NCBI GenBank assembly: GCA_024408335.1
Contig: JAKSVB010000002.1
Coordinates: 90,630-154,629, forward strand
Length of the DNA stretch: 64,000 bases
From: Bacilli bacterium
GTDB taxonomy: Bacteria; Bacillota_I; Bacilli_A; RFN20; CAG-826
Direction of reading: 5' to 3'
A program made the position numbers and the translations under genes. Positions within the stretch are counted from its first letter, which is position 1, and each line of letters starts with the position of its first letter. This document shows positions 15,605-32,505 of this stretch, one piece after another. The notes beneath the pieces were generated by a model that saw only the letters and a program-made list of their open reading frames with translations, had not been told where the DNA came from and made no database searches.

Positions 15605-15609
15605 TTAAG

Positions 15610-16923: not shown

Positions 16924-17643
16924 TTACTTCCATTCTAAAGGTTTCTCTTCACCTTTTCTAATTCTTTGGATATTAGCTGAGTGACGAATAACGAGAAGGA
17001 CATAAGCGGAAACCATGGCGATCATCATCTCCCATCCGAAGTAGACACCGCCGCCTGCTCCGAAGTTCCACATAAGAGGATCGAAGAGTTTGTAGTTGCC
17101 TGTTGCCATTGTTATTGTTGCGAACACTCCAGCAATCAAAACAAGAATCGCACCAGAAAGGATTGAAGCCTTTGACATGACTTTCTTTAAGCCGAAGAAA
17201 CTAACGAAGAAGACGACGAGTGAAATGGCAAAACCAGCCCAGCTTGAACCACCGAAAATCGCCATGAAGCAAGCGACTGCCTTTCCACCTTTGAAGTGAA
17301 GCCAAGGTGAGAAGCAGTGGCCGAAGCATGCAGCAGCTTGTGCGAAATATGCATAAAGGACGCCGCCATCAAATAACTTAGCAGGTCCGATTGCGAATCT
17401 TAAGATAGCCCAGACGCTCCAGAAAGCGACAACGTTTTTGGCAATGTCGAGGACCATGACAAGGATTCCGACTTTCTTTCCTAAGACACGACCAGTGTTA
17501 GTTCCGCCTGAATTGTGGGAGCCAAATTCTCTTGGGTCTTTTCCAAAGAAGACTTTTCCAACGACGACGCCTGTTGGGATGCTTCCTAATAAGAAGCCAT
17601 AAACAACGCATCCGATTGCGACAATGATATTTAGTAGTAACAT
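16924..17643 (-). CDS. plsY: glycerol-3-phosphate acyltransferase PlsY
   Basis: N-terminal LLGSIPTG...HNSGGTNTGRVLG acyl-phosphate transferase motifs. About 30 aa longer at the C-terminus than typical PlsY. Confidence 0.85.
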   Translation of the reverse strand: MLLLNIIVAIGCVVYGFLLGSIPTGVVVGKVFFGKDPREFGSHNSGGTNTGRVLGKKVGILVMVLDIAKNVVAFWSVWAILRFAIGPAKLFDGGVLYAYFAQAAACFGHCFSPWLHFKGGKAVACFMAIFGGSSWAGFAISLVVFFVSFFGLKKVMSKASILSGAILVLIAGVFATITMATGNYKLFDPLMWNFGAGGGVYFGWEMMIAMVSAYVLLVIRHSANIQRIRKGEEKPLEWK

Positions 17644-17760
17644 TTTTTACCTCGCCCTAAGCAGACTATTATTAATAATAGGGTCTACTTTTCGTTCTGT
17701 TTCTTTGCTATAATAACTAAAAATTGAGAAATACTCAATATTTGAGGCATTTGAATACAG

Positions 17761-19692
17761 ATGGACGAGATGAATTATACTGCGAAAGACATAGAGGTTT
17801 TATCAGAACTCGAAGGCGTTAGAAAGCGCCCTGGCATGTATATCGGCAGTACCAACCTTAATGGTCTTCACCACTTAGTTTGGGAAATTGTTGATAACGC
17901 TGTGGACGAAGCCGTCAACGGTCATGGTAAAAAGATTACCGTCACCATGATGTCCGATGGATCGATTACCGTCGAAGACGAAGGACGTGGTGTCCCTGTT
18001 GACGTTCATGAAAAAACCGGAATACCAGCTATTCAGTTAATTTACACAACCCTTCATAGCGGTGGTAAATTCAATAGCAAAAACTACAAGACCAGCGCTG
18101 GTTTACACGGCGTCGGCGCTACAGTTACAAACGCTTTAAGCGAAGCTTTGGACGTAACTGTTTTTAGAGATGGAAAAATCCACGAAATCAAATTCGCTAA
18201 CGGCGGACAACTCGTCAGTCCTTTAACCGTTATCGGAACAACCAACAAACATGGCACAAAAGTCCATTTCAAACCAGATCCAACAATCTTCCCTAACACT
18301 AAATTCAGCTGGGATACCATTTATCATCGCTTAGAAGAGAAATCATTCCTTTTAACTGGTGTTCATTTCATTCTTAAAGACCAAGCCTCTGGCAATTCAC
18401 ATGAATTCGTCACCGAACACGGCTTAAGAGAATACGTCGAATCACTCACTGCTGAGAAGACACCTTTGGCAGACACCATTGACTTTATTGATGAAGTCAG
18501 CTCAATCAAAATCGAAGTCGCTATGAAATGGTGCGTCGGTGATTATGGCGAAAACGTCTATAGCTATGCTAACGACGTCCGTACTGCTGATGGCGGTACC
18601 CATGAAACGGGATTTAAGACATCATTAACCAAGATTCTTAACGACTGGGCATCAAATAACGAACTCCTTAAAGGCAACCAATCAATCGATGGTGCGGATA
18701 TTCGTGAAGGCTTAACCGCCGTTCTTTCTGTTCAAGTCCCTGAGAACAAACTCGAATACGAAGGACAAACAAAAGGAAAACTCGGAACCCCAGAAGCTAC
18801 AGCAGCAGTTGCTACAGCAATGGCAGGCTTCCTCCCATATTACTTAACCGAACACAAAGAGTTTGCAGTCGCCTTGATCAAGAAGTGCGCTCAAGCAAAA
18901 GAGGTTCGTGAAGCAGCTAGAAAAGCCCGCGAACAAGCTAGAGGCGCTAAGAAAAAAGTCCAAGACGTCATGATTAGCGATAAACTCGCAAGCGCCCAAA
19001 GCAAGGATTACAAGAATAACGAGCTCTTTATCGTTGAGGGTGATTCTGCAGGCGGCAGCGCAAAATCAGGACGTGATAGACTCCATCAAGCTATCCTCCC
19101 ATTACGTGGTAAACCTTTAAATACCCATAACGTTTCTAACCAAGCCATCATTGATAACCTCGAATTCTCAACGCTTATCCAAACAATCGGCGCTGGATTT
19201 GGTGACGACTTCCATCCTGAACAAAGCAGATATGGAAAAATCATCATCATGACAGATGCTGACACCGATGGCGCTCATATTCAGACTCTTCTCTTAACGT
19301 TCTTCTATAACTACATGAAGCCGTTAATCGATTTAGGCATGGTTTACATCGCTCAACCACCTCTCTATAGAGTTTTCAAAAAGAGCGATCCTTCAAAACA
19401 CATTTACTGCTGGAGCGACGAGGATCTCGAAAAAGCAAAAGCCAAGATCGGTGCCGGTTATGGCGTTAACCGTTACAAAGGTCTTGGTGAAATGAACGCA
19501 GACCAACTCGCTATGACCACAATGAACAAGAAAACCCGTGTTCTCTGTCAGGTCAAAATAGAAGATCCACTTTTAGCAGAAAAGCGCATCAATACCTTAA
19601 TGGGTAAAGACGCTGGCCCACGTTGGAATTGGATTCAAGAGAATGTCACCTTCAACGAGGTTGACGAATTCATTAAGGAAGTGAAGAAGTAA
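17761..19692 (+). CDS. parE: type IIA topoisomerase ATPase subunit; assigned as topoisomerase IV subunit B (GyrB not excluded)
   Basis: GHKL ATPase N-terminus ([17 protein letters not shown]), TOPRIM EGDSAGG, and PLRGK. Divergent from plsY, as yneS-parE-parC in Bacillus. Confidence 0.7.
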
Positions 19693-19694
19693 CG

Positions 19695-22325
19695 ATGGCA
19701 AAGAAGAAGATTATCGAAACCGAAGTAATTAAAGAAAACATCATCACCGACACCCTTGATGAACTCATGGGCGTCAAATTTGCGATTTATGCAAAAGACG
19801 TCATTCAAGATCGTGCTATCCCTGATGCAAGAGACGGCTTAAAGCCAGTTCAACGCCGTATTGTTTTCGATATGTGGAATACCGGAAACACAATTGATAA
19901 ACCAACAAAGAAATGTGCCCACATCGTCGGTGACGTCATGGGTAATTACCACCCTCATGGCGACTCTTCAATCTATGAAGCTCTCGTCCACATGTCACAA
20001 ACATGGAGCTACCGTTATCCTCTTATCGATTTTCAAGGAAACAACGGTTCAATCGATGGCGATAGCGCTGCTGCGTACCGTTACACCGAAGCCCGTTTAG
20101 CGGCAATCGCCAATGAACTCGTCGCCGATATCGATAAAGAAACCGTCGATATGGAACTCACTTACGACGACAAACATGAGGAACCAATCGTTCTCCCATC
20201 TCTTTATCCAAACCTTTTCGTTAACGGCTCTGAGGGTATTGCTGTTGGTATTTCAACATCAATCCCACCTCATAACCTCCGTGAAGTCACTAACGCTGTC
20301 ATTTATAGAATCAAGCACCCAAACTGCGAAATCGAAGATCTCATGAAATTCGTTCCTGCTCCTGATTTCCCAACAGGCGGCATCATCTACAAGTCTGAAG
20401 GTCTTGAAGATATTTATAGAACAGGCCGTGGCAAGCTCATTATGAGTAGCAAATGCTCTATCGAGACCGATGAAGAAGGAACAAAGCAAATCATCATCAC
20501 CGAAATCCCATATCAAGTTAACAAATCGATGCTTGTCAAATCCATCGACAAGATTCGTCATGACAAAACAATCCCTGGTATCGTTGAAGTCAGAGACGAA
20601 ACTGATAAGCAAGGCTTAAGAATCGCCATCGACTTAAAGAACGAAAGCAATCCAGAAGCTATTTTGGCTTTCTTAATGAGCAAGACTCAACTTAAGACCT
20701 CTTTCAGCGCTCAAATGGTCGCAATCGTCGATGATAGTCCAAAGACACTTGACCTTATCACGTACTGCGATTGCTATATCCAACACCAACTCGATGTCAT
20801 TACCAGAAAGAGTCACTTCCTTTTAAACAAATACACAGCAAGACTATCGATCGTCGAAGGCTTAATCAAAGCCATCAGCGTTCTTGATAGAGTCGTCGAA
20901 ATCATTAAAGGCAGCAACGATAAAGCCGATTCCAAAATCAATATCGAAAAGGAATTCGGATTCACCGAGCCTCAAGCAGAAGCCATCGTCATGATGCCTT
21001 TATACAAACTCTCGCATACTGACATCAAGGTTTTGGAAGAAGAAAGAGTTAAACTCCAATCTGACATTGATTACCTTAATGGCATTCTTAATGACCAAAC
21101 CAAACGTGAGGCCGTCATTATTAGCACCCTTCAAGGCATCGCTAAGAAATATGGCGATAATCGTAAATCAGAAATCGTTGACGAAGAGAAGAACGTCGTC
21201 ATCGATAAGAGAGACCTCATCGCTAAAGAGACGATTAAGCTTGTCGTCACTCAAGACGGCTACATGAAACGTTCCTCAATCAAATCATGGAAGAGCTCAG
21301 GCGGACATAACGGCGTTAGAGCAGGTTTGAAAGCAGGGGACTCATTCATCTTTGATGGCGAATGTGAAACAACAGACACCCTCCTTGTTTTCACCGCAAA
21401 CGGTAACTACCTCTATATCCCAGTTAACGAAATCAAAGATAACAAATGGAATGATGAAGGCTTCCACGTCAATACGATGGTTAGCTTAGACGCTGACGAT
21501 AGACTCCATAGCGCATTCGCTATTAGAAATTTCAGAAGCGACCTCTACATTGTCCTTTTAACCAGAAACGGATCGATCAAGAGAATCAGACTCGACTCAT
21601 TCCCAGTCGTAAGAAGAAGCAAGCCAATCGCCGCAATCAAAATGAGCAAAGGCGATACCCTTGTCGGCGTCGCTTTAACTAGTGGCAATAGCAACCTCTT
21701 CGTCATCAGCGAAGAAGGAAGAGCTTCTTTCTATAACGAAAACGACATTTCCGTCTCTAATCCTAAGAGCGGTGGCGTCAAAGCCGGTTCCTTCTTAGGG
21801 AAACCTATGGCAGGACTTGTTGCCTTTGCGCCAAACGAAGAAGAGAAGAAGATCCTTTTCTTAACTAACCGCGCTCACACAAGAGTCTTCTCAATCACAA
21901 ATATCGAACTTGGAAAACGCGTTGGCAAATCAATCGAACTCTATAGCATGTTCAAAAAAGAGCCTCATAAGCTTATCAGCGTCATGAAGCTTAATGGACA
22001 AGAAGCCCCATATGAAATCGATACCGTCTTAGAAGATGGAACCGAATACAAAGCCAAATACGAAGACTTCTATTTGACTCCGATGGAGAAATACGCGAGA
22101 AAGCCTGATGACTTTGCCGCTAAAAACATCATCGCTAGAGTTAGCAAAGACAAATTCTATTCGCCTCTTGTCGATGACTCCATCGTTAGCTTTGCGCCTC
22201 CTGTAGTGGAAACCCCAGTGGAAGAGGTTGAGGAAAGCGAAAAGATCACCATCGAAAGCGCTGGATCATTTGAGCAGATTTCTCTCTTTGATGACCTTAT
22301 GGGTGAGGATGACAATAAGGAATAA
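19695..22325 (+). CDS. parC: type IIA topoisomerase subunit A; assigned as topoisomerase IV subunit A
   Basis: Active-site region AARYTEARL with catalytic Tyr. N-terminal [14 protein letters not shown] is ParC-like. There is no canonical GyrA box QRRGGKG; it reads KSSGGHNG instead. Confidence 0.7.
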
Positions 22326-22327
22326 CC

Positions 22328-22858
22328 ATGAATAAGAAGAAGATTTGGGTACCAACATATCAAGCTTCATCTATCTATGACATTCCTATGTCCTTTTTCC
22401 TTGAGAAAGGCATAACCACAGTCTTATCGGACTTAGATAACACATTAGACGCGTATAACGTCAAGGACCCTTCTCCTAGGGCCTTTGAGCTTGTCGCTAG
22501 ATTCAAAGAAGCTGGCATCGCCTTTTATATTGCGTCCAACAATACCTCGAAACGTGTTAAACGTTACGCCCAAAACCTTGGAATCAAGGCATTCTGTGGC
22601 TTAAAGAAACCTTTTAGTGGACCATTAAAGAAAACCATCGCTAGTGAAGGGTTTGACAAAGCAAAGACCGTTCTTATTGGCGATCAAGTCCTTACCGACG
22701 TCATCGCAGGTAATGGAGCGGGAATCTTAACCATTCTCACTAACCCTGTTTCAAAACTTGACGCCCCATGGACTAGAGTCAACCGCATCCTCGAAAAAGG
22801 AAAACGAAAGAGACTAAATAAAGAACCGTATAATTCTAAAGAGAGGGTCATTGTATGA
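22328..22858 (+). CDS. yqeG: YqeG-family HAD-IIIA phosphatase
   Basis: DxDxT (LSDLDNTL), GDQVLTDV motif, and position immediately before yqeH. Confidence 0.8.
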   Translation: MNKKKIWVPTYQASSIYDIPMSFFLEKGITTVLSDLDNTLDAYNVKDPSPRAFELVARFKEAGIAFYIASNNTSKRVKRYAQNLGIKAFCGLKKPFSGPLKKTIASEGFDKAKTVLIGDQVLTDVIAGNGAGILTILTNPVSKLDAPWTRVNRILEKGKRKRLNKEPYNSKERVIV

Positions 22859-24021
22859 GTTTAGTTACAGCAGTTCGCCGTTGTTACAGGTGTGGTAATG
22901 CTTTACAGGGTGAAAACCCTAATGAGAAAGGCTATTGTGAGCCTGCTCTTCTTGCTAATGATTCAAAATTCCAGATCATCCTTTGCAAGGAATGCTATGA
23001 AGAGCTTCATTACAACCAAAAGCCAGCCGGAGCAGAAGCACCAAGTGGTTTCGCTAAGATGCTCATCGACGCCAAAAGACAAAACGCCCTCATTGTCTAT
23101 CTTGTCGATTGCTTAAACTTCGAATGCTCATTCATCCCTGACGTTCTTGAAATGATTGATGAGCTTCCAGTCATCGTGGTCGGCTCAAAATTTGACTTAA
23201 TGCCTTCTGGCGCAAGCCAAGAACACGTCAAAGAATACATCGCTCACCGTTTTAGGGGAGAAGGATTCAAAAACGCGAAAGCAGAAGACGTAGTTCTTAT
23301 GGATTACACTAGCCACGCTGACGCTAGTAAAGCTAAAGAGCTCATCGAAGAGAAAAGAAAAGGCAAAAACGTCTTCGTTATCGGCGCAAAAGGAGCGGGA
23401 AAGAGTAATTTCATCACTAGTTTCTTACGTCAATACAAAAACCAATCATCGCATGGCGTCTCGATCTCCAATTACCCTGAGACCGATCTTGAAGTTTGGC
23501 AAATCCCGCTCGACGAGAATTCATGGATCTATGACACTCCTGGCACAGGAATCAAAAACATGATGATCGGCATCGAAGGTTTCCCAAAAGAAATCATGAT
23601 GACGACAAAAGTGGCTCCTCGAAAAGAAGAAATTGCAGAAAAAGGAAGCCTCTTTATTGGTCTTTTAGGAAGAATTGACCCTATTAGTATCAAGAACCCA
23701 AAGAAAAAAGTGACATTCACCTGTTACTTTGCTCCAAAAGTCGAACTCAAAAGCGTTTCGGCCAAAAAAGATATGAATTCCTTATGGAACAAATACCTTA
23801 AGAAGAAAGCGATGAAGCCAAAACTCATCTCAATCGCCTCTATAGCCGATATGGATGTCTTCGATATAACTTTAGTGGAAGATGGTCCAAGAGATATTGG
23901 CATCGCAGGTTTAGGCTGGGTTTCCTTTAACGGAATGACCGGCGACATTTACCGTGTCTACGTTCCAAAGAACATAGGCGCATACGCGTCACGCGCGAAA
24001 GTAATTAATAATAAGAAGTAG
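22855..24021 (+). CDS. yqeH: ribosome biogenesis GTPase YqeH (circularly permuted GTPase)
   Basis: N-terminal zinc finger CYRCG...C..C, permuted G-motif order (NKFD before GAKGAGKS), and a C-terminal domain. Confidence 0.85.
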   Translation: MSLVTAVRRCYRCGNALQGENPNEKGYCEPALLANDSKFQIILCKECYEELHYNQKPAGAEAPSGFAKMLIDAKRQNALIVYLVDCLNFECSFIPDVLEMIDELPVIVVGSKFDLMPSGASQEHVKEYIAHRFRGEGFKNAKAEDVVLMDYTSHADASKAKELIEEKRKGKNVFVIGAKGAGKSNFITSFLRQYKNQSSHGVSISNYPETDLEVWQIPLDENSWIYDTPGTGIKNMMIGIEGFPKEIMMTTKVAPRKEEIAEKGSLFIGLLGRIDPISIKNPKKKVTFTCYFAPKVELKSVSAKKDMNSLWNKYLKKKAMKPKLISIASIADMDVFDITLVEDGPRDIGIAGLGWVSFNGMTGDIYRVYVPKNIGAYASRAKVINNKK

Positions 24022-24029
24022 GTAAGAAT

Positions 24030-24323
24030 ATGTTAGCTCCAAAAAATCGTGCTTATCTCAAAGGATTAGCAAATACATTAAAACCATCACTCAACATCGG
24101 TAAGGGCGATATCAATGAAGGCGTCCTTGACGTCCTCGACAAAGCCTTAGAGGCCCATGAACTCGCAAAAGTCCGTCTTCTTGACACCGTTGGCTCAACC
24201 GCTGACGAAGTCGTCGAAGAACTTTGCAAAGGCGTAGGCGCTGAGTTTGTAGGTAAATGTGGTCACATCATCACCCTTTACCGCCCAAGCAAGAAGAATA
24301 AGAGAATTACCCTCCCTAGATAA
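24030..24323 (+). CDS. yhbY: CRM-domain RNA-binding protein YhbY/YqeI
   Basis: LKGLANTLKPSLNIGKGDI...KVRLL CRS1/YhbY signature, 97 aa. Confidence 0.85.
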   Translation: MLAPKNRAYLKGLANTLKPSLNIGKGDINEGVLDVLDKALEAHELAKVRLLDTVGSTADEVVEELCKGVGAEFVGKCGHIITLYRPSKKNKRITLPR

Positions 24324-25447
24324 TGAAAAAGCTTATAGTCTACGGTGGAAGCTTCGATCCGCCTCATAACGGTCATTTGGCAATCGCTAAAGCGGCAGCC
24401 AAGTCTTTTGGTTGCTCTTTATGCTTAATGCCTGCTAAACACGCTAGATGGAAAGACAATGAAGCATCGACCGAAGATAGACTTAAGATGGCATCTATTG
24501 CCGCGGATATCTTAAACAAAGATATGCCTGGCACCTTTTTCGTCTCTGATTATGAAATTAGACAAGAGGAAGAAGGGGAAACTCATTCAATCGATGCCGT
24601 TAGACACTTCGCGAAAGAATATGAGAAACTCTATTTTATTATCGGTGCTGACCAAGTTGCCCTCTTCGACAAATGGTATAAGCCTGATGAGATAGCATCG
24701 CTTGCTCAAATCGTCTACGTTTCTAGACCTGGTAATGAGATAAGTGACTCTAATGTCGCTAAATACCATATGATTAAGCTAGAAATGGAAGAATACCCTG
24801 TTTCTAGCACCCAAATAAGAAACCTTGAGTCGATTGATTACCCTGATGAGATTCGTCATTACGTCGAGGTGAAGAGACTCTACTTATTAAGTAAGTTTGG
24901 CAACTACCTTAAGCCAAAGAGATTAGAGCATTCCATATCTGTCGCTAACGTGGCTTTAAAGATTGCTATAAATAATCCTGAAGCAGCATTGCCGATCGAA
25001 GCGTATAGAGCAGGTCTTCTCCACGATTTAGGCAAATACGTTAATGATGAGGCTGCTATAGCAATGATTAAGGAGAATTTTGATGAGAAATACACCAAAT
25101 ATCCTTCTTGGGCGTATCACCAGTGGACTGGTGCGGTCATAGCAAAAGACGTATTTGGCGAAAAGAACCAAAAAGTCTTAGACGCAATTACTTATCACTG
25201 CACAGGCCGTCCCAAAATGGGGCCTTTAGAGCAAATCATTTATAGTTCAGATAAGATTGATCCATTGCGTGGATACGATTCGTCTGGATTCATCAAATCT
25301 TGCATAAATGATTACCATCAAGGTTTCATTGATGTCCTTGCCGCGAATAGAATCTATTTAGCGGAGAAAGATCTTCATCAAGATGATTCGAAAGATCTCA
25401 AAGACATGTGTTACGAATACTATTTAGACAAAGGAGAAAAAGAATAA
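24323..25447 (+). CDS. nadD: fusion: nicotinate-nucleotide adenylyltransferase NadD (N-terminal) + HD-domain YqeK bis(5'-nucleosyl)-tetraphosphatase (C-terminal)
   Basis: N-terminal GGSFDPPHNGHL (H/TxGH nucleotidyltransferase). The C-terminal half has HD-domain residues LEHS...LLHDLGKY...YHC in the YqeK pattern. One ORF of 374 aa. Confidence 0.8.
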   Translation: MKKLIVYGGSFDPPHNGHLAIAKAAAKSFGCSLCLMPAKHARWKDNEASTEDRLKMASIAADILNKDMPGTFFVSDYEIRQEEEGETHSIDAVRHFAKEYEKLYFIIGADQVALFDKWYKPDEIASLAQIVYVSRPGNEISDSNVAKYHMIKLEMEEYPVSSTQIRNLESIDYPDEIRHYVEVKRLYLLSKFGNYLKPKRLEHSISVANVALKIAINNPEAALPIEAYRAGLLHDLGKYVNDEAAIAMIKENFDEKYTKYPSWAYHQWTGAVIAKDVFGEKNQKVLDAITYHCTGRPKMGPLEQIIYSSDKIDPLRGYDSSGFIKSCINDYHQGFIDVLAANRIYLAEKDLHQDDSKDLKDMCYEYYLDKGEKE

Positions 25448-25776
25448 TGGAATATCCAAAATTAATACAAGAAACAATTGCCTTATTAGAAGAAAAGAAA
25501 GGCGAAGAGATTGTCGCGATTGACGTTAGAGAAAGAACTCCGTTCACAGATTTCTATATTCTTGTCACCGCGCCAAACATGAGAGCAGTAGGTGCTTACG
25601 CTGAATCTCTTGAAGAGTTCTTTGAAGGCAAAGTTGAAGACCTTAGAAAGATCGAAGGACAACCTGAATCCGGTTGGGTTCTAGTTGACGGAGGCGAAGT
25701 CGTCGTTCATATCTTCACCGAACAAAAGAGAAGAGAACTTAGCCTTGAGGACTTGTTCTTGAAGAGCTTAGCCTAA
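25447..25776 (+). CDS. rsfS: ribosome silencing factor RsfS (Iojap/YqeL)
   Basis: MEYPKLIQETIALLEEKKGEEIVAIDV...DFYILVTAPN...GWVLVDGGEVVVHIF. The start is taken at MEYPK; the track ORF starts at 25408, inside nadD. Confidence 0.85.
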   Translation: MEYPKLIQETIALLEEKKGEEIVAIDVRERTPFTDFYILVTAPNMRAVGAYAESLEEFFEGKVEDLRKIEGQPESGWVLVDGGEVVVHIFTEQKRRELSLEDLFLKSLA

Positions 25777-25798
25777 TTGATTCTCATAAATAAACAAT

Positions 25799-25828
25799 GG
25801 GTTCTAGATAAGGAACCCTTTTCTTTTT
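25799..25828 (+). terminator. rho-independent terminator after rsfS
   Basis: GGGTTCTAGATAAGGAACCC hairpin plus TTTTCTTTTT. Confidence 0.75.
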
Positions 25829-25960
25829 GCCTATCTATAACTGGCGGAAAGTGATAGCAGTGGACCACGAAATTCAAACTCAAAAACAAGAGCAAAAATA
25901 ACAGTCAATTAGTAGATTTGGTTTCTTTGGATTTTTGAGCGAACCTAAGAAATCAATATA

Positions 25961-25988
25961 ACTACGCATAATAGCCCTTATGTTAACC
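25961..25988. other. dif: candidate dif site (Xer chromosome-dimer resolution site): ACTACGCATAA-TAGCCC-TTATGTTAACC
   Basis: The right arm matches the XerD-arm consensus TTATGTTAAAT (E. coli) and TTATGTAAACT (B. subtilis) at 9/11. The left arm carries CGCATAA, as in GGTGCGCATAA. The central region is 6 bp. It lies in an AT-rich intergenic region about 145 bp 3' of a xer gene and exactly at the gene-orientation switch. Confidence 0.55.
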
Positions 25989-26131
25989 AAACAATAAAGA
26001 AATAGCGACAAATAGCCGTTTTCTAAATATTGTCTATTATTGTGTTCTTACTTTATCAACTGAAAATACTAGGTTATCAACACTATTTAGAAACTACTAA
26101 ATAACTACTAATCTATAATTGATTCCTGAAC

Positions 26132-27013
26132 CTATTTTCTAGAACTAAACTTGTCGTAAGCCGCCATGATTCTGTTCGTAGATAAATGTGTGTAGATTTG
26201 GGTTGTTGAGATTTTGCTATGTCCTAACATTTCCTGGACCGCTCTAAGATCTGCGCCGTTGTTTAATAAGTGAGTCGCAAAACAATGTCTTAATGTGTGA
26301 GGCGATATTGCATCATCGACTCCAGCGATTTCCGCGTATCTCTTTATCTGCTTAAAGAAATAAATTCTTGAGATTGGTTTGCCTTCTCTATTTAGGAATA
26401 TGTAATTGGATGAATGACCTTTGTTCTTTCTTCTTGTTCCATCAATATACTTTCTTAAATAATCCATTGAGAAACTGGAAACCGGAACGCTGCGTTGCTT
26501 ATTGCCTTTGCCGTATACTGTTATGACTCCTGATTCAAAATCAATGTTCTTAAACTGCAATGTGATGAGTTCAGAAACACGTAATCCGGTCGCATACATG
26601 ATTTCGAGCATCACTCTATCTCTTTGGCCGGTTTCCTTTTTCATATCTGGCGCCTCAAGAAGCAAATCGATGTCTTCAGTCGATAAAACAAATGGCAGTT
26701 TTTTGTCGCCTTTTGGTTTTTGGAGATTTGGAATATCGACATCGATGATTCCTTCGCCGACTAAAAACTGAAAATAGTTCTTTAGACAGCTATATCGCCT
26801 AAGGATTGTTGAGGCCGCTTTAAGATCTTCGCTCTCTTTTTGAATGAAGCCAGATATTTGTTCGACCATTAAGTCATCCGTTGTCTTGATGTCCTCAAAA
26901 ACCGAGAAAAAGAGTTTAAGATCTTCTCTATAGTTTTGGATTGTTATCCTCGAAACGCCTTTTTCAACTTGAAGATGCTGAAAATAAAGGGAAACAGAAT
27001 CATTTATTTCCAT
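26132..27013 (-). CDS. xerD: tyrosine site-specific recombinase, XerC/XerD-like
   Basis: N-terminal SAM-like core-binding domain. Catalytic R...HxxR...Y region is LRHCFATHLL...GHSKISTTQIYTH. 293 aa. Confidence 0.8.
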   Translation of the reverse strand: MEINDSVSLYFQHLQVEKGVSRITIQNYREDLKLFFSVFEDIKTTDDLMVEQISGFIQKESEDLKAASTILRRYSCLKNYFQFLVGEGIIDVDIPNLQKPKGDKKLPFVLSTEDIDLLLEAPDMKKETGQRDRVMLEIMYATGLRVSELITLQFKNIDFESGVITVYGKGNKQRSVPVSSFSMDYLRKYIDGTRRKNKGHSSNYIFLNREGKPISRIYFFKQIKRYAEIAGVDDAISPHTLRHCFATHLLNNGADLRAVQEMLGHSKISTTQIYTHLSTNRIMAAYDKFSSRK

Positions 27014-28187
27014 TTTTCTTTACCTCACTAGCCATAACCAAGAGTTTCTTGTTGGCTTTTCTGTTTAATGAATTGACGAGTAGCTTTGTTTCGTCTTCTT
27101 TTTCGTATGATTCATAGTTCCATAAAGACATCTGGACGTTCTTTTCTTTTAAAGGGACTAAGTTACCTGCTGTAACGCCGATAAGTCGAATTACGATACC
27201 TAAAAACGTGTTGTTATAGATTCTATTTGCTACTTTGATTATATCTTCCTCTTCAAATATAGGTTCATCCAAAGAAACGACCTTTGAGAATGACTTAAAG
27301 TGTTCATCTTTGATGTTCACGGTTATCGAACGAGCCTTTTTCTTTTCTCTAGCGATTCCTCTAGCGACTCTTGCACACAAATTATTGAGCATTTCGCGAA
27401 TTTCATCAGGATCATTCGTGTCAAATAGGAAGGTTTGGCTATGCCCTAAAGACTTTTGGTCAGGATATTCGGTAATGACTACGTCATCGCCGTTTCCTCG
27501 AATGTTATTTAGATACCAATCGTATGACTTCCCGAAATGTTTTCTCATTTCGTCTTCTTTTGTTTCGAGAATATTAACGAAATCGCCAATTGTCTTAACG
27601 CCTAATGTATCTAGGTAGGCTGCGCTTTTCTTTCCAACTCCAAAGAAATCGCCGATTTTCAAAGGATAGAGCATCTTTTTGATGTCTCTACGCCTAATTA
27701 CCGTGATGCCCATAGGTTTTTTCATATCGGAGCCCATCTTCGCTAAAAACTTTGTTGGAGCAACGCCTATGGAGCACTTGAGACCGAGCTCTTTATATAG
27801 ACCTTCCTGAAGTTCCTTGAGGCATTTTATAGGATCTTTCTCTTTTTGAAGGTATTTGGTCATATCGACAAACCCTTCATCGATGGATGCTTCCTCGATA
27901 AGCGATGAATAGTTTCTAAGATAACCGAAAAACGATCTAGAAAGGAGTTCGTAGTATTCAAAATCTGGAAATAAGTAAATTCCTTGAGGGCAAAGTCTTC
28001 TTGCTTCGCCAATAGGCATAGCCGAATGCACGCCGAAAGCTCTAGCTTCATAAGAACACGTTGATACAACGCCTCTAAGGCCTAAACCGCCTACAATGAC
28101 AGGCTTTCCTTGATATTCAGGGTTCTTGATTTGTTCTGCGGTCGCATAGAACGCATTCAAATCAATGTGCATGATGATTTTCGACAT
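27000..28187 (-). CDS. dinB: DNA polymerase IV (Y-family)
   Basis: N-terminal IMHIDLNAFYATAEQ...KPVIVGG, matching the UmuC/DinB palm. About 395 aa. Confidence 0.85.
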   Translation of the reverse strand: MSKIIMHIDLNAFYATAEQIKNPEYQGKPVIVGGLGLRGVVSTCSYEARAFGVHSAMPIGEARRLCPQGIYLFPDFEYYELLSRSFFGYLRNYSSLIEEASIDEGFVDMTKYLQKEKDPIKCLKELQEGLYKELGLKCSIGVAPTKFLAKMGSDMKKPMGITVIRRRDIKKMLYPLKIGDFFGVGKKSAAYLDTLGVKTIGDFVNILETKEDEMRKHFGKSYDWYLNNIRGNGDDVVITEYPDQKSLGHSQTFLFDTNDPDEIREMLNNLCARVARGIAREKKKARSITVNIKDEHFKSFSKVVSLDEPIFEEEDIIKVANRIYNNTFLGIVIRLIGVTAGNLVPLKEKNVQMSLWNYESYEKEDETKLLVNSLNRKANKKLLVMASEVKKNGNK

Positions 28188-28226
28188 GTCTATATTCTAA
28201 AAGATATGTTCCGTTATGTTAACAAA

Positions 28227-30080
28227 TTATAAGATTTCTTTTAAAACGGAATCGACGTCAACGCCGTATTCCTTTTCTTGTTCAGCAATCGTTGAATGTT
28301 GAACGAATGTGTTTGGTATGGCAAACGATTTGAATTCGCCTTTGAATCCGTTTTCTAAAAGCGATGACGCTACAGCTTCAGCAAAGCCGTTTTTGGTGCC
28401 ATAGGAATCGTAAACCGTCACTTTTTCGTAGCCTAAAAGGCTCTTAATATCTTTCTCATCAACTGGTAAGAGTCTTAAGGCTTTGATTAGCGAGCCTTTA
28501 TAGCCATTATCTTTAAGCGTCTTAAGTAATTCAGCGCCTTTAGGCCCAACAGCGATCACAGCCTCTTTTGAATCACCTTTTTCGAGCACATTCCAAGGCT
28601 TGATCTCAACTTCGTTATAGGAATCTTGTTTTGGCATTAAGGTATGTGGGTATCTAATTGCAACGATTCCACTGCCTTTTGTCATAGACATATCCATAAG
28701 AGATTTAAGTTCGTCAAACGTTGTAGGCATGTATAAATTGATGCCTGGGATGGATTTTAGGTAAGCCTCATCGTAAATACCCATATGGGTATCACCATCT
28801 TTGCCAACTAAACCGGCTCTATCGATGAGTAAGGTCAAATCCGATTTGTTTCTAGCGCAGTCATGGAGAAGCTCATCGTAGGCTCTTTGCAAGAAAGTTG
28901 AATAAAGACAAACGATTGGGTGATATCCAGCTGCAAATGTAGCGCCAGCCATCGTTAAAGCGTGTTCTTCAGCGATACCAACGTCGATACATCTATCTGG
29001 ATATGCCTCAAAAGCGCCTTCAAGATGACTGCCTTTGATCATCGCAGGACAAATAAGAACGCTGTCTTCGTGTTTGGCCATCTCTTCTTTAACGAAATCA
29101 CCAACGATATGTGGCCAGGAAACCGTTGTTGGGTGAACGTTCAAAGGTTCGCCTGTTTCTTTATTAAATGGTGTTGCGCCATGCCAATAACCTGTTTTGT
29201 CATTCTCTGCAGGAGCATAACCCTTTCCTTTTTGGGTTACGACGTGAAGAACAACGCTTTTGGTTGAGTTTTTGGCACGTTTAAAGGCTTTATCTAAGGC
29301 TTTGATATCGTGTCCGTTAAATGGACCCATATACGTGTAGCCTAAGCCATCGAATAAGGTTAACGGAACCAAAGTACGTTTGATTCTTTCTTTAACTGCT
29401 TTTGAGAAGCGGTAAATCGCTCTTCCTGGAGCATTCGAATAAAGAAGCTTACGGTATCCGTTTTTGAATTTGTTATATGACTTAGCGGTTGAGATGCCTC
29501 TAAAGAATTTGCCAACGCTGCCGACTGGTCTAGAGATAGACATATCGTTATCGTTAACGACGATGATGAACTTCTTGAAACGTCCGCCGATGTGGTTCAA
29601 GGCTTCGAATGACAAACCGTTAACTAAGGATGAGTCACCGATTAAGGCGACAATATAGATGTCTTCTTTTTTGAGATCACGGACATTGGCGAATCCTTCA
29701 GCGACAGATAATGATGTTGAAGAGTGTCCAGCGCCGAATGCGTCGTATTCAGATTCATCAGGTCTAATGAATCCGCTAGTTGAATCTTTTGCGTTAAGAT
29801 TCTCCAAACTCCTGCCTGTCAAAATCTTGTGAGCGTAGCATTGATGCGAGACGTCAAAGATGAGTTTGTCTTTTGGGAAATCGAAGTTTCTATGAAGCGC
29901 GACGGTGAGTTCAACGACTCCAAGATTCGAGCTTAAATGGCCTCCATGTTTGGAGACGACGTCAATGATTTCGTTTCGAATATCGTGACATAGAACTGCC
30001 AAAGACTTGTATCCTAACGTTTTGACAAAGGACGGTTCTTTGATAGCCTTTATGTCGACACGCTCTATCTTCTCTTTCAT
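28227..30080 (-). CDS. dxs: 1-deoxy-D-xylulose-5-phosphate synthase
   Basis: TPP-binding GHSSTS...GDG...N motif and transketolase-like domains, 617 aa. Confidence 0.9.
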   Translation of the reverse strand: MKEKIERVDIKAIKEPSFVKTLGYKSLAVLCHDIRNEIIDVVSKHGGHLSSNLGVVELTVALHRNFDFPKDKLIFDVSHQCYAHKILTGRSLENLNAKDSTSGFIRPDESEYDAFGAGHSSTSLSVAEGFANVRDLKKEDIYIVALIGDSSLVNGLSFEALNHIGGRFKKFIIVVNDNDMSISRPVGSVGKFFRGISTAKSYNKFKNGYRKLLYSNAPGRAIYRFSKAVKERIKRTLVPLTLFDGLGYTYMGPFNGHDIKALDKAFKRAKNSTKSVVLHVVTQKGKGYAPAENDKTGYWHGATPFNKETGEPLNVHPTTVSWPHIVGDFVKEEMAKHEDSVLICPAMIKGSHLEGAFEAYPDRCIDVGIAEEHALTMAGATFAAGYHPIVCLYSTFLQRAYDELLHDCARNKSDLTLLIDRAGLVGKDGDTHMGIYDEAYLKSIPGINLYMPTTFDELKSLMDMSMTKGSGIVAIRYPHTLMPKQDSYNEVEIKPWNVLEKGDSKEAVIAVGPKGAELLKTLKDNGYKGSLIKALRLLPVDEKDIKSLLGYEKVTVYDSYGTKNGFAEAVASSLLENGFKGEFKSFAIPNTFVQHSTIAEQEKEYGVDVDSVLKEIL

Positions 30081-30116
30081 ATTGTAAATACTTTAAAACT
30101 ACTAATTATCTACTTA

Positions 30117-30314
30117 TTACTTATCAGCCTTAATTAACGCGATTTTTGCTTCTGCTTCATTCAAAGTCTTCTGGAGGTCTTTAATTAAGAGGTTACCTTC
30201 TTCATAAAGTTTCATAGCTTCATCTAAAGGAAGTAGCTCATTCTCAACCTTATTAACGATCTCATTAAGCTTATTTAGTTTCTCTTCAAAACTGAGTTCT
30301 TTCTCTTGTTCCAT
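30117..30314 (-). CDS. xseB: exodeoxyribonuclease VII small subunit
   Basis: 65-aa helical protein LSFEEKLNKLNEIVNKVEN..LPLDEAMKLYEEG. Immediately downstream of xseA. Confidence 0.85.
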   Translation of the reverse strand: MEQEKELSFEEKLNKLNEIVNKVENELLPLDEAMKLYEEGNLLIKDLQKTLNEAEAKIALIKADK

Positions 30315-30317
30315 AAG

Positions 30318-31520
30318 TTACTCCTTTGCTGATACTGTGCTGATTATAATACCATCTTTCAAAACTGTATGCAGTTTTTCTCCGACTTTAATCTCGGTCG
30401 ATGATGTGATGACTTTCCCTTCATCGTTTGTTGTCATTGAGTATCCCCTGCTAATGACGTTTTTTGGGTTTAGGGATTTTAGTTTTCCTTCTAAGTTTGT
30501 TATCTCGCTAGCCTTCTTTTCTAATTGGTGTGTAATGGCGAATTCTAGTCTAGAAGAGAGTTGGCTCACTTGTTCGATTGCTTTCTCGTAACTAGATGCA
30601 GGATTCTTGAAGAATGGCCTTTCTGATAATCTTAGAAGCATTTCTTTCTTTCTACTTAGAAGATAGCCGATCGATGTGTCTAAGGATTCTTCTGCCCCCA
30701 TTAGAATTGATCTAATCTCATTTTGATCTGGCGTTGCTGCTTCTGCGGCCCCTGTTGGAGTTGAAACCCTTAGGTCTGATACGTAATCGATTAATGTTGT
30801 ATCTATTTCGTGACCGACTGCTGAGATGCATGGAATCTTACATGAATAGAGTTCCCTGGCAAGAGCTTCATCATTAAAGGCGTCTAAATCCTCATTTGAG
30901 CCACCGCCTCTAGCGATAATTAGCGTATCTAGAGGATAACTCTCCGCAAGCTTTAACGCGCGTAATAAGTCTTTTGGTGCTTCTTTGCCTTGAACGAGGG
31001 ATGGGAATACATAAATCTCGCATATTGGCCAACGTCTATTGATGTTGGTGATAAGATCCGCCTCTGCAGCGCTACTTGCGCCAACGATAAGGCCAATCTT
31101 CTTAGGGAAGGCTGGGATTTCTAGTTTATGCGAAGGATCGAATAACCCTTCTGCCATGAGTTTCTTCTTTAGAGCCTCTAAAGCAAGGAGTTTGGCTCCT
31201 TGGCCAAATTGCTCCATGGTTCTTACTGTTAGGTTATATGTTCCTCTACCGACATAAACGCTCACGGAACCTAAAACAACTACTTGATCGCCGCTTTTTG
31301 GCTCAAAAGGAAGATACATGTAGTTATTTCTCCATATAACGCAGGAAATAACGCTGTCCTTGCCTTCAATCAAATTAAAAAAGAAACCGGAACTATATTC
31401 TTTCCAGTTGCTGATTTCTCCTTTGACGTAGATGTTTTTGAGGTCGTAATCACCCTCAAGCTTGTTTTTGATTAAAGTATTGAGTGTTGCGACGGTTATA
31501 TAGTTTTTGATTTCCATCAA
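30318..31520 (-). CDS. xseA: exodeoxyribonuclease VII large subunit
   Basis: N-terminal OB fold followed by a catalytic region, about 400 aa. Located nusB-xseA-xseB as in Bacillus. Confidence 0.85.
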   Translation of the reverse strand: MMEIKNYITVATLNTLIKNKLEGDYDLKNIYVKGEISNWKEYSSGFFFNLIEGKDSVISCVIWRNNYMYLPFEPKSGDQVVVLGSVSVYVGRGTYNLTVRTMEQFGQGAKLLALEALKKKLMAEGLFDPSHKLEIPAFPKKIGLIVGASSAAEADLITNINRRWPICEIYVFPSLVQGKEAPKDLLRALKLAESYPLDTLIIARGGGSNEDLDAFNDEALARELYSCKIPCISAVGHEIDTTLIDYVSDLRVSTPTGAAEAATPDQNEIRSILMGAEESLDTSIGYLLSRKKEMLLRLSERPFFKNPASSYEKAIEQVSQLSSRLEFAITHQLEKKASEITNLEGKLKSLNPKNVISRGYSMTTNDEGKVITSSTEIKVGEKLHTVLKDGIIISTVSAKE

Positions 31521-31933
31521 TTAAGGGTCTTGTCCAAGATTGCGTTGACGAATTTGTAATCGTTGGCATCAAGATACTTTTTAGCGAGTTCAACTGAAAC
31601 GTTGATAACGATAGCTTTGTCAGTCTTCTCTCTGCTATAGAAGTACTGGCAGTATGCGAGCATAAGAAGAGATTGCTCTAAAAGATTAAGACGGTCGAAT
31701 GTCCACTTTCTCATGCGTGATTCAAAGGCTGGAATGATATCTTTGTAGTGTTTAAGCATACAAACGACCATTTCTTTGACGAAATAATCACTATCGGCAT
31801 ATTCGGTTTCACATAAACCACTCACGATGTCCATAACTGGTGCTTCGAGATTGATTTTTGAGTATGTAAGGATGTCGTAGATTGCGAATAATGCGACTTC
31901 GTGTGCTTTGTTACGTGATAATTCTTTTTCCAT
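31517..31933 (-). CDS. nusB: transcription antitermination factor NusB
   Basis: 138-aa all-helical NusB pattern (AHEVALFAIYD...). Synteny with xseA. Confidence 0.8.
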   Translation of the reverse strand: MEKELSRNKAHEVALFAIYDILTYSKINLEAPVMDIVSGLCETEYADSDYFVKEMVVCMLKHYKDIIPAFESRMRKWTFDRLNLLEQSLLMLAYCQYFYSREKTDKAIVINVSVELAKKYLDANDYKFVNAILDKTLN

Positions 31934-32022
31934 TGTTAGATCAAGCCTTTGATTTTTTAGGCGCCTAAGTTTAACACATTTCTCTTGATTGTGAATATTA
32001 AATGTAATTTATTTACATAAAC

Positions 32023-32053
32023 AAGAAAAAAGCGTGGCCTTTTTGACCACGCT
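32023..32053 (-). terminator. rho-independent terminator after asp23-family gene
   Basis: On the - strand: AGCGTGGTCAAAAAGGCCACGCT followed by TTTTTTCTTG. Confidence 0.75.
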
Positions 32054-32068
32054 TTAACGGAAATTTAG

Positions 32069-32467
32069 TTATTTATGCTCTTTTGTAGCTTTTAGTGGCC
32101 TAACTTTTTCTTTCGATACATGGATTTCGACTGAGAAAGATAGGGTCTCGCACATCATAGAGACGACATTAGAGACCTCTTCTTGAATCCTTGTGCAAAG
32201 AGCGGCTATTTGAGTGATTTTTGGGTTCACTACGGTGTCGATTACGAAATCAACACGTCCGTCTTTTCTGAAAGACGCATGCACTGGGCGGACAAGAGAG
32301 AAGATTGAATTTAATTTGGCAATGATATTGTCTTGAACTAAGTCCTTGATCTTAACGTTTTGGAGGTTGTTGCTTGCGATTGTAGCAATCGTCTCAAACG
32401 CTTTTCTTGAGATGCCGCATTTTCCAGCGCGGTTTTTATATGTATCTAAGTAGTAAAATTCTGCCAT
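32069..32467 (-). CDS. Asp23/Gls24-family alkaline-shock-like protein (YqhY-like)
   Basis: 132 aa, DUF322/Asp23 pattern (GISRKAFETIA...). A YqhY-like gene sits in this xseA-nusB neighbourhood in Bacillus. Confidence 0.6.
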   Translation of the reverse strand: MAEFYYLDTYKNRAGKCGISRKAFETIATIASNNLQNVKIKDLVQDNIIAKLNSIFSLVRPVHASFRKDGRVDFVIDTVVNPKITQIAALCTRIQEEVSNVVSMMCETLSFSVEIHVSKEKVRPLKATKEHK

Positions 32468-32505
32468 GTATTAATATTAACTATTTAATGAGTGTAAATA
32501 AAGAA

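What the first reader, a model, noticed from the sequence alone, without database searches (positions are those of the whole stretch)
25777..26131. Near-total gene-orientation switch marks a probable replication terminus
From 1 to 25,776, 23 of 27 genes are on the + strand. From 26,132 to 61,541, all 28 genes are on the - strand. In low-GC Gram-positive genomes most genes are co-directional with replication. Convergent replichores meeting at about 25.9 kb is therefore the simplest explanation. It coincides with the dif-like site and the xer gene.
Basis: inference. Interest (0 to 1): 0.5.

Follow-up and report, generated by a model that had tools for sequence, protein, structure and literature searches.

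The report
Chromosome terminus with conserved dif site
Two long blocks of housekeeping genes point at each other across a 355-base gap that holds a conserved dif site next to a xerD gene, so this is very probably the ordinary end-point of chromosome replication in an uncultured gut or rumen bacterium.

Summary
Genes run on + up to 25,776 (four exceptions) and on - from 26,132 to 61,541. A 28-bp dif site (25,961-25,988) lies in the gap, 143 bp beyond the stop codon of an intact XerD-type recombinase gene.

In 24 related loci from uncultured Bacilli (Xer 44-75% identical), the same 28-mer sits at the point where the two gene blocks converge. It stays there even where one to four other genes separate xerD from dif. 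Synteny is conserved on both sides. This supports a dif-centred terminus region.

It is not proven. No complete genome was found, so dnaA/oriC could not be placed.

GC skew does flip at this point, but from negative to positive, which is the polarity usually seen at an origin. The cause is that the coding strand of every gene strongly prefers C over G at codon position 3. Low-GC relatives show the classical polarity.

One side finding is unexplained. A pair of DnaA-box-like 9-mers and TTAGTAG repeats lie at fixed distances from dif, in this clade only.

The main finding is ordinary: a new member of a known kind.

The parts
1..25776 (+). Left arm: genes directed toward dif. They include ybeY, era, recO, glyQS, dnaG, rpoD, cshA-like, efp, parE, parC, yqeG, yqeH, yhbY, a nadD-yqeK fusion and rsfS. 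Four genes are counter-oriented: a glycosyltransferase, ispH, ispG and plsY.
   Evidence: ORF lists; NCBIfam scans
25799..25828 (.). Terminator-like hairpin predicted on both strands (GGGTTC-N-GAACCC plus a T-run), just after rsfS and left of dif.
25909..25917 (+). TTAGTAGAT motif, 43 bp outside the XerC-like arm of dif and reading toward dif. It is inverted relative to the copies on the other side. A copy at the equivalent position and orientation occurs in L002, L010, L011 and L023.
25961..25988 (+). dif site: ACTACGCATAA (XerC-like arm), TAGCCC (central region), TTATGTTAACC (XerD-like arm). The arm assignment is by analogy with E. coli dif.
   Evidence: The 28-mer is conserved at the convergence point in 24 related loci, with clade consensus ACTTCGCATAA-TGTCCA-TTATGTTAACT.
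26053..26061 (+). Weak DnaA-box-like 9-mer TTATCAACT (2 mismatches to TTATCCACA). It sits at the conserved -73 position relative to dif.
   Evidence: Sequence; positional conservation
26074..26082 (+). DnaA-box-like 9-mer TTATCAACA (1 mismatch). It sits at the conserved -94 position relative to dif, 21 bp from the previous one and in the same orientation.
26092..26111 (-). Two TTAGTAGTT copies 11 bp apart, reading toward dif. They occupy the conserved position of about -111/-122 in relatives.
26132..27013 (-). XerD-type tyrosine recombinase gene (293 aa). It overlaps dinB by 14 nt.
   Evidence: NCBIfam: XerD 321.6 bits, tyrosine-recombinase subfamily PRK00283 above its cut-off. Best solved structure is E. 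coli XerD 1A0P, with catalytic motifs aligned.
26132..61541 (-). Right arm: 26-27 genes, all directed toward dif. They include xerD, dinB, dxs, xseB, xseA, nusB, tkt, aspS, hisS, relA, recJ, a SecDF-like gene, ruvB, ruvA, obg, rpmA, prp, rplU, valS, a MacB-like ABC gene, ysxC, lon and tig.
61740..64000 (+). Two counter-oriented accessory genes beyond the right arm: a TetR-family regulator (61740-62375) and a GGDEF/EAL protein (from 62396, running off the window).

Best explanation
The 355-bp gap at 25,777-26,131 is the dif-centred replication termination region of the chromosome of an uncultured, Mollicutes-like member of the Bacilli.

Inferred: the two replication forks approach from left and right. 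As is usual in PolC-type low-GC Gram-positives, almost all genes, and all essential and highly expressed ones, are transcribed in the direction of fork travel, so the two gene blocks converge here.

Shown: the gap holds a single 28-bp dif site. Inferred from established Xer biology: the adjacent XerD-type recombinase, probably with an XerC partner encoded elsewhere, resolves chromosome dimers at dif after activation by an FtsK/SpoIIIE-type translocase.

Shown: the convergence, the dif sequence and its position, the intact xerD gene, and conservation of all three across a clade. Inferred and not tested: that forks actually meet here, and that oriC lies opposite.
For: (1) Orientation: 21 + to 4 - on the left and 26-27 of 26-27 on - on the right, with the switch in one intergenic gap.
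(2) The dif 28-mer matches the E. coli and B. subtilis type (11-6-11, arms GCATAA/TTATGT) and occurs once in the window.
(3) In 24 related loci (Xer 44-75% identical, GC 27-59%) the same 28-mer lies at the convergence point. The surrounding intergenic DNA does not align. In distant relatives deoB and ABC-transporter genes lie between xerD and dif, so the switch tracks dif and not xerD.
(4) Synteny is conserved on both sides...dxs-dinB-xerD... -> dif <- rsfS-nadD/yqeK-yhbY-yqeH-yqeG-parC-parE.
(5) XerD is intact and XerD-like.
(6) Low-GC relatives show classical G>C on both strands reading toward dif (+0.10 to +0.19). In L020 and L014, co-oriented genes have higher coding-strand GC skew than counter-oriented genes (+0.10/+0.08 against -0.05/+0.01), as expected for leading-strand genes (reference values in PMC2031905).
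(7) In published surveys dif lies within about 1.4% of genome length of the skew shift point in Firmicutes (PMC3025954).
Against: No complete genome of this lineage was available, so the position relative to dnaA/oriC and the replichore-scale orientation bias are untested. Only 26 kb and 35 kb flank the site, and the - block ends at 61.5 kb.

In the window itself GC skew has the opposite sign to a classical terminus (-0.017 on the left, +0.044 on the right). Every compositional or oligomer asymmetry tested follows the coding strand, so none is independent evidence: GC3/GC4 skew, GAAGAAG.

One or two DnaA-box-like 9-mers lie 65-94 bp from dif, which is an origin-type feature.

Kono et al. conclude that termination occurs near dif but not necessarily at it.
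Confidence: 0.85

Rival explanations
1. This is only a local convergent boundary. The 35-kb - block would be an inverted or merely long same-strand segment inside one replichore, and the dif-like site would not mark where forks meet.
For: The - block is bounded on the right by + genes at 61,740 onward. No replication-specific signal separable from transcription was found in the window. The genome-scale context is unknown.
Against: This would place 26-27 consecutive genes, including aaRS genes, ribosomal proteins, tig, lon and obg, head-on to replication, which is very unusual for Firmicutes. The junction, its flanking synteny and the dif at its centre are conserved across relatives down to 44% Xer identity, so this is not a recent inversion. 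The two + genes at 61.7 kb are accessory regulators, the kind of gene tolerated on the lagging strand.
Confidence: 0.08
2. This is a replication origin. The cumulative GC-skew minimum, DnaA-box-like 9-mers and TAG repeats (DnaA-trio-like) next to an AT-rich gap could be read as oriC.
For: The cumulative G-C minimum lies at about 26-31 kb. TTATCAACA and TTATCAACT sit 21 bp apart, next to TAGTAG repeats, on the same strand arrangement as the box-plus-trio module described for B. subtilis (PMC8287927). The B. subtilis geometry is taken from my own recollection of its oriC sequence.
Against: Genes converge on the site rather than diverge from it. No dnaA or dnaN is in the window. DnaA boxes are not enriched in the window: 13 found, 13.06 expected. 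The published criteria for the basal unwinding system (at least 3 consecutive NAN trios within 16 bp of a box) are not met: there are only TAG-TAG doublets, 11 nt apart and out of register (sequence; criteria). The skew polarity is explained by codon position 3 and reverses in low-GC relatives at the homologous site. A conserved dif lies at the centre.
Confidence: 0.02
3. This is a Xer-dependent mobile element or a self-contained xer-dif module, like XerS/difSL or an element that integrates at dif. The dif-like site would be the attachment or target site of the neighbouring recombinase, not a terminus marker.
For: xerD lies 143 bp from the site in the window. Single-recombinase systems with the gene next to the site are known (XerS, XerH; own knowledge, and PMC3025954 background).
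Against: No mobile-element genes are present, and both flanks are conserved core genes. In relatives, one to four housekeeping genes separate xerD from dif, so the adjacency here is secondary gene loss. The protein scores as XerD, not XerS (120 bits against a cut-off of 267) and not XerH. The site is a 28-bp XerC/D-type dif, not the 31-bp difSL.
Confidence: 0.04

Closest known systems
Bacillus subtilis terminus region with dif and RipX(XerD)/CodV(XerC)
   Same: The dif is a 28-bp site of the same type. The clade consensus ACTTCGCATAA-TGTCCA-TTATGTTAACT compares with B. subtilis ACTTCCTAGAA-TATATA-TTATGTAAACT (the B. subtilis sequence is from my own knowledge). The recombinase is XerD-type, genes are co-oriented with replication, and dif lies in the termination region (PMC13220808). 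The xerD-deoB neighbourhood seen in relatives also exists in B. subtilis (own knowledge).
   Different: In B. subtilis xerD lies hundreds of kb from dif (own knowledge), whereas here it is 0.1-4.5 kb away. No rtp gene and no recognisable Ter site were seen in the window; Ter sites were not searched for systematically. The coding-strand GC skew has the opposite sign to typical Firmicutes. A pair of DnaA-box-like 9-mers flanks dif.
Escherichia coli dif / XerCD / FtsK-KOPS system
   Same: The site has the 11-6-11 architecture and near-identical inner arm positions: GCATAA...TTATGTTAA against E. coli GGTGCGCATAA-TGTATA-TTATGTTAAAT (the E. coli sequence is from my own knowledge). XerD is the closest solved structure. 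dif lies where the two replichores' polarities converge.
   Different: No G-rich KOPS motifs were found: GGGNAGGG is absent from both arms (0 hits either way), and the B. subtilis SRS GAGAAGGG has 0 hits reading toward dif and 2 on the opposite strand. No Tus/Ter was identified. The gene-orientation bias is far stronger than in E. coli.
XerS/difSL (streptococci, lactococci) and XerH/difH (Helicobacter, Campylobacter) single-recombinase modules
   Same: The recombinase gene lies immediately beside its dif site at the terminus.
   Different: The protein is not XerS or XerH. The site is a classical 28-bp dif with two distinct arms. The adjacency is lineage-specific and arose by loss of intervening genes.
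DnaA-box clusters outside oriC (B. subtilis DBCs, E. coli datA)
   Same: One to three DnaA-box-like 9-mers lie in a non-promoter intergenic region away from dnaA and are conserved in position.
   Different: According to the title of Okumura 2012 as cited in PMC13220808, the known B. subtilis clusters are oriC-proximal. This one lies at a fixed 65-95 bp from dif, at the presumed terminus. DnaA binding has not been tested.

Membership tests
XerC/D-type chromosomal dif site | A 28-bp site with two 11-bp imperfectly palindromic arms around a 6-bp central region, matching the phylum consensus | tested here: met
   25,961-25,988 reads ACTACGCATAA-TAGCCC-TTATGTTAACC. The clade alignment shows both arms conserved and the centre variable. 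The same core is found in more than 120 metagenome contigs.
XerC/D-type chromosomal dif site | A single copy per chromosome | not testable with these tools
   It occurs once in the 64-kb window and once per related locus. The whole genome is not available.
XerC/D-type chromosomal dif site | Lies at the junction of replichore polarity (skew or orientation switch) | tested here: met
   It lies in the single gap where gene orientation switches, in the window and in 24 relatives. Purine and AT cumulative extremes fall within about 50 bp.
XerC/D-type chromosomal dif site | A cognate Xer recombinase is present | tested here: met
   An intact XerD-type gene lies 143 bp away. An XerC partner was not looked for outside the window.
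XerC/D-type chromosomal dif site | Supports Xer/FtsK-dependent dimer resolution | not testable with these tools
   This needs genetics or biochemistry.
Bacterial replication terminus region | Located roughly opposite oriC/dnaA on the circular chromosome | not testable with these tools
   Only MAG contigs (up to 400 kb) and 4.6-9.3 kb Logan contigs were found for this lineage.
Bacterial replication terminus region | Gene-orientation bias changes sign | tested here: met
Bacterial replication terminus region | GC skew changes from + to - along the + strand (G-rich leading strands converge) | tested here: inconclusive
   The window shows the opposite sign change (-0.017 to +0.044), caused by coding-strand C3 preference. 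Low-GC relatives show the classical sign at the homologous site. All of these signals are confounded with transcription direction.
Bacterial replication terminus region | A fork-trap system (Tus/Ter or RTP/Ter) | not tested
   No rtp-like or tus-like gene appeared among the annotated window genes. Ter motifs for this clade are unknown. Inverted TTAGTAG motifs flank dif, but nothing shows they act as a fork trap.
oriC / basal unwinding system (rival) | A DnaA box (up to 2 mismatches) followed within 0-16 bp by at least 3 consecutive NAN DnaA-trios (Pelliciari 2021) | tested here: not met
   Criteria from PMC8287927. The window has TAG-TAG doublets only, 11 nt apart.
oriC / basal unwinding system (rival) | Genes diverge from the site, and dnaA/dnaN are usually adjacent in Firmicutes | tested here: not met
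   Genes converge on the site, and no dnaA or dnaN is in the window.
XerS/difSL module | A XerS-family recombinase and a 31-bp difSL | tested here: not met
   The XerS model scores 120 bits against a cut-off of 267. The site is a 28-bp classical dif.

The most novel reading that the evidence does not exclude
In this clade dif may be part of a larger conserved terminus element of about 150 bp. Outside the XerD-binding arm lie two DnaA-box-like 9-mers at fixed offsets (about -94 and -73, 21 bp apart), preceded by TTAGTAG repeats at 11-bp spacing (about -111/-122). In several lineages an inverted TTAGTAG copy or further boxes lie on the other side of dif.

This could be a terminus-located binding platform for DnaA or another protein. 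Possible roles are a DnaA sink that is duplicated only when replication finishes, an accessory factor for Xer recombination, or a fork or SMC barrier. None of these has been described next to dif, as far as one full-text search showed.
Probability: 0.3. Interest if true: 0.65.

Novelty: new member of a known kind. Interest (0 to 1): 0.3.

Why it matters
For the finding as given, the value is practical. It anchors the terminus in a lineage known only from metagenome bins, and it gives a clade-specific dif consensus that can be used to orient and check assemblies.

It is also a worked warning about method. In this lineage a GC-skew plot would show a minimum, the usual origin signature, at the terminus, and DnaA-box-like 9-mers lie beside it. 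Automated origin finders that combine skew minima with DnaA boxes could therefore call oriC at the wrong pole.

If the dif-linked DnaA-box/TTAGTAG module proves functional, it would be a new physical link between the initiator protein, or another factor, and the site where replication and segregation end.

Tried and rejected
(1) Extending the window or finding a closed genome. Exact-protein look-ups returned only 9.3-kb and 4.6-kb Logan contigs from SRR17543911, or nothing. The genome scan returned only MAG contigs, with the best Xer identity at 75%.

(2) Separating replication skew from transcription skew in the window. GC4 skew of co-oriented and counter-oriented genes does not differ (the last gene was mis-framed by 1 nt there, which does not change the conclusion). 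Intergenic skew has the classical sign, but G-rich ribosome-binding sites on the coding strand could explain it.

(3) KOPS/SRS polarity. GGGNAGGG is absent from both arms, and GAGAAGGG has 0 hits reading toward dif and 2 on the opposite strand. GAAGAAG is 55:6 toward dif but follows the coding strand even in counter-oriented genes, so it is uninformative.

(4) Origin reading. Rejected: no DnaA-box enrichment, criteria for the basal unwinding system not met, and genes converge.

(5) Structured RNA or tRNA in the gap or the window: none.

(6) A sigma-70 promoter that would explain the conserved motifs: none predicted in the gap.

(7) A conserved small ORF between xerD and dif in close relatives: none seen by eye in the alignment.

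(8) Literature on DnaA boxes next to dif: one full-text search found nothing relevant.

Full report
**Observation**

The window has a sharp orientation switch. ORF lists and NCBIfam scans show a left block from 1 to 25,776 on the + strand. It carries ybeY, era, recO, glyQS, dnaG, rpoD, a cshA-like helicase, efp, parE, parC, yqeG, yqeH, yhbY, a nadD-yqeK fusion and rsfS. Four genes in this block are on the - strand: a glycosyltransferase, ispH, ispG and plsY.

The right block, 26,132-61,541, is entirely on the - strand. It carries xerD, dinB, dxs, xseB, xseA, nusB, tkt, aspS, hisS, relA, recJ, a SecDF-like gene, ruvB, ruvA, obg, rpmA, prp, rplU, valS, a MacB-like ABC gene, ysxC, lon and tig.

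One point was not reported: at 61,740 the orientation returns to +, with a TetR regulator and a GGDEF/EAL gene that runs off the window.

**The gap itself (25,777-26,131)**

The gap contains several features:
- A terminator-like hairpin predicted on both strands, just after rsfS (25,799-25,828).
- A 28-bp site, ACTACGCATAA-TAGCCC-TTATGTTAACC (25,961-25,988). It has the 11-6-11 layout and the inner arm bases of E. coli and B. subtilis dif (those reference sequences are from my own knowledge). The core GCATAA-N6-TTATGTTAA occurs exactly once in the window, where 0.17 matches are expected even at up to 2 mismatches.

The neighbouring 293-aa protein scores highest against the XerD models (321.6 bits, against 285.6 for XerC and 120 for XerS). 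Its closest solved structure is E. coli XerD, with the catalytic R, K, HxxR, H and Y motifs aligned. It overlaps dinB by 14 nt, so it is probably co-transcribed with it.

**Comparative evidence**

A scan of one genome per species found no identical organism. It did find 24 related loci in uncultured 'Bacilli', 'Erysipelotrichaceae' or 'Bacillales' MAGs from rumen and gut, with Xer identity of 44-75%.
- All 24 show the same convergent gene layout.
- Every locus that reaches the convergence point (23 of the 24) carries one copy of TT[AT]ACATAA-N6-TTAT[GAT]C, in the same orientation, in the gap where the two blocks meet. The 24th, L021, is a 6-kb contig that ends before that point.
- The clade consensus is ACTTCGCATAA-TGTCCA-TTATGTTAACT. 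Both arms are conserved, the centre varies, and the flanks do not align.
- Synteny is conserved on both sides.
- In the window, xerD ends 143 bp from dif. In the closest relatives the distance is about 390-470 bp. In more distant ones deoB, two ABC-transporter genes and a 190-aa gene lie in between, for 1.7-4.5 kb in total.

The orientation switch therefore tracks dif, not xerD. The tight xerD-dif adjacency in this window is a secondary result of gene loss.

**Interpretation**

Both arms carry essential and highly expressed genes. In PolC-type Firmicutes such genes lie almost exclusively on the leading strand (established knowledge; orientation-bias values in PMC2031905). For both arms to be leading strands, forks must converge between them.

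dif is the accepted sequence marker of the termination region. In 97 Firmicute chromosomes its position correlates with the GC-skew shift point to within about 0-1.4% of genome length. The same authors caution that termination occurs near dif rather than at it (PMC3025954). In B. subtilis dif lies in the terminus region, where RipX/CodV act with SftA/SpoIIIE (PMC13220808).

I conclude with about 0.85 confidence that this is the dif-centred termination region.

**GC skew: the proposed check would mislead**

The skew does invert here, but in the direction usually seen at an origin. The + strand skew is -0.017 on the left arm and +0.044 on the right, and the cumulative G-C minimum is at 31,421.

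The cause is visible gene by gene. The coding strand prefers C over G at codon position 3 in almost every gene, whichever strand it is on. GC3 skew is typically -0.2 to -0.75, and the pooled GC4 skew of co-oriented genes is -0.68. This outweighs the G excess at codon position 1.

AT, purine and keto excess do peak within about 25-160 bp of dif, but they too follow the coding strand.

Co-oriented and counter-oriented genes do not differ in GC4 skew in the window. The Lactococcus KOPS motif GAAGAAG is 55:6 toward dif but follows the coding strand even in counter-oriented genes. So nothing in the window isolates a replication-specific signal.

Relatives help. At the homologous locus the skew of the strands reading toward dif rises from about -0.05 to +0.19 as GC content falls from 59% to 27%. 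In the two low-GC loci that contain counter-oriented genes (L020, L014), co-oriented genes have coding-strand skews of +0.10 and +0.08, against -0.05 and +0.01 for counter-oriented genes. That is the pattern reported for leading-strand against lagging-strand genes in Firmicutes (0.124 against 0.027). This rests on four genes and is only a hint, but it points the right way.

**An unexpected conserved element beside dif**

Aligning the gap with close relatives revealed a second conserved block on the xerD side. Anchoring all loci on dif gives the following picture.
- TTAGTAG[TA]T lies at about -111, often with further copies at -122 and -135, i.e. at 11-13-bp spacing.
- 9-mers within one mismatch of the DnaA box lie at -92 to -98, read as TGTGGATAA on the xerD-sense strand. 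Others lie at -73 to -79.
- These boxes occur in 15 of 21 loci, or 11 of about 14 independent lineages. The background density is 0.26 per kb, counting both strands.

In the window these elements are:
- TTATCAACA at 26,074-26,082 (1 mismatch);
- TTATCAACT at 26,053-26,061 (2 mismatches);
- TTAGTAGTT twice, at 26,092-26,111 on the - strand;
- an inverted TTAGTAGAT at 25,909-25,917 on the far side of dif. A copy at the equivalent position occurs in L002, L010, L011 and L023.

TTAGTAGWT occurs 5 times in the window against 1.0 expected.

As a control, the same dif core was scanned in public metagenomes and gave 120 loci spanning GC 26-65%. Eight of them have a box at -93 to -104. Five of the eight share this clade's synteny (L097, L125, L131, L156, L183). 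Two are contigs too short to judge, and one is unrelated. About 110 other dif sites lack the box. L097, L131 and L183 have further boxes at +18 to +36.

The module is therefore clade-specific and tied in position to dif.

TAG repeats on the strand 5' of TGTGGATAA have the same arrangement as the DnaA-trio/DnaA-box unwinding module of oriC. However, the published criteria require at least three consecutive NAN trios within 16 bp of a box (PMC8287927). These are not met: there are only TAG-TAG doublets, and they are out of register. DnaA boxes are not enriched in the window overall (13 found, 13.06 expected), genes converge on the site, and no dnaA gene is present. I reject the origin reading.

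What the module does is unknown. One full-text search found no report of DnaA boxes next to dif. According to the title of Okumura 2012 as cited, the six known B. subtilis DnaA-box clusters are oriC-proximal. I list a functional terminus-linked protein-binding platform as the novel case, at a probability of about 0.3.

**Rivals**

A merely local convergent junction or inversion (0.08) is disfavoured by the deep conservation of the junction and by the gene content of the arms. An origin (0.02) and a mobile or self-contained Xer module (0.04) each fail tested defining features; see the membership table.

**Limits**

The lineage is known only from fragments. Exact-protein look-ups found 9.3-kb and 4.6-kb Logan contigs from SRR17543911, or nothing, and the longest related contig is 400 kb. 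The position of oriC, the uniqueness of dif, the presence of xerC and ftsK, and the replichore-scale orientation bias are therefore all untested.

The taxonomic placement, among Mollicutes-like gut and rumen Bacilli and possibly the group called RFN20, rests on MAG titles, the nadD-yqeK fusion model and my own knowledge. It was not tested.

**Verdict**

This is a well-understood kind of feature in a new lineage, so the interest is low to moderate. Two things add value: the origin-like skew polarity at a terminus, and the conserved DnaA-box/TTAGTAG module beside dif.

Noticed in passing
window 26053-26111 and 25909-25917; L002-L023, L040, L080, L097, L125, L131, L156, L183 at -135..-73 and +18..+48 from dif: A clade-specific conserved module lies beside dif. 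It has two DnaA-box-like 9-mers at about -94 and -73, and TTAGTAG[TA]T repeats at about -111/-122. Some lineages have inverted copies or extra boxes on the other side. About 110 unrelated dif sites with the same core lack it. Its function is unknown.
   Followed up: partly
whole window; related loci L002-L080: The coding strand strongly prefers C over G at codon position 3 (pooled GC4 skew of co-oriented genes about -0.68), so the presumed leading strands are slightly C-rich. A GC-skew plot would therefore show an origin-like minimum at the terminus. The effect scales with GC content across syntenic relatives (27-59% GC) and disappears in the low-GC ones.
   Followed up: yes
window 25989-26131 compared with L009-L023 and L080, about 10,880-14,600: Relatives have deoB (phosphopentomutase), two ABC-transporter genes and a 190-aa gene between xerD and dif. 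The window lineage and its closest relatives have lost them, leaving xerD directly next to dif.
   Followed up: partly
L083-L202 (metagenome contigs): The dif core ACTTCGCATAA-N6-TTATGTTAA is very widespread, in contigs of 26-65% GC from soil, marine, freshwater and gut samples. Most carry the central region TATACA or TATATA (read as).
   Followed up: partly
window 17761-22325: The Topo IV genes parE and parC lie 3.5-8 kb from dif. This neighbourhood is conserved in all relatives whose locus reaches that far. A review notes a Topo IV cleavage hotspot near dif in E. coli (PMC13220808). This may be coincidence.
   Followed up: no
window 16911-16919 (-) and 30097-30105 (-): The other two TTAGTAGTT copies in the window lie 5 and 12 nt downstream of the stop codons of plsY and xseB, and the copy at 26103-26111 lies 21 nt after the xerD stop. 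The motif may also serve as a post-stop or intergenic signal.
   Followed up: no
window 24323-25447: nadD and yqeK are fused into one 374-aa ORF. The best model is PRK07152, 249.8 bits against a cut-off of 315. I associate this arrangement with Mollicutes-like lineages (own knowledge).
   Followed up: no
window 41512-44304: A 930-aa ORF with only weak SecDF similarity, confined to residues 358-930 (100.9 bits against a cut-off of 500), and a long unassigned N-terminal region. Its TTG start is uncertain.
   Followed up: no
window 8481-10019: RpoD is 512 aa. The conserved sigma-70 regions lie at residues 258-496 (RpoD C-terminal model), leaving a long N-terminal region that begins [25 protein letters not shown]. 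This region gives the highest AT skew in the window (about +0.30) and a cluster of GAAGAAG repeats.
   Followed up: no
window 61740-64000: A TetR-family regulator and a GGDEF/EAL protein are the only + strand genes to the right of dif. They are counter-oriented accessory genes at the end of the 35-kb - block. The same pair is on a 4.6-kb Logan contig from SRR17543911.
   Followed up: partly
window 10031-10708, 16290-16748, 32069-32467, 59968-60897: Four ORFs of 132-309 aa have no NCBIfam match. The one at 32069-32467 has a weak Asp23 Pfam hit in the Logan record.
   Followed up: no
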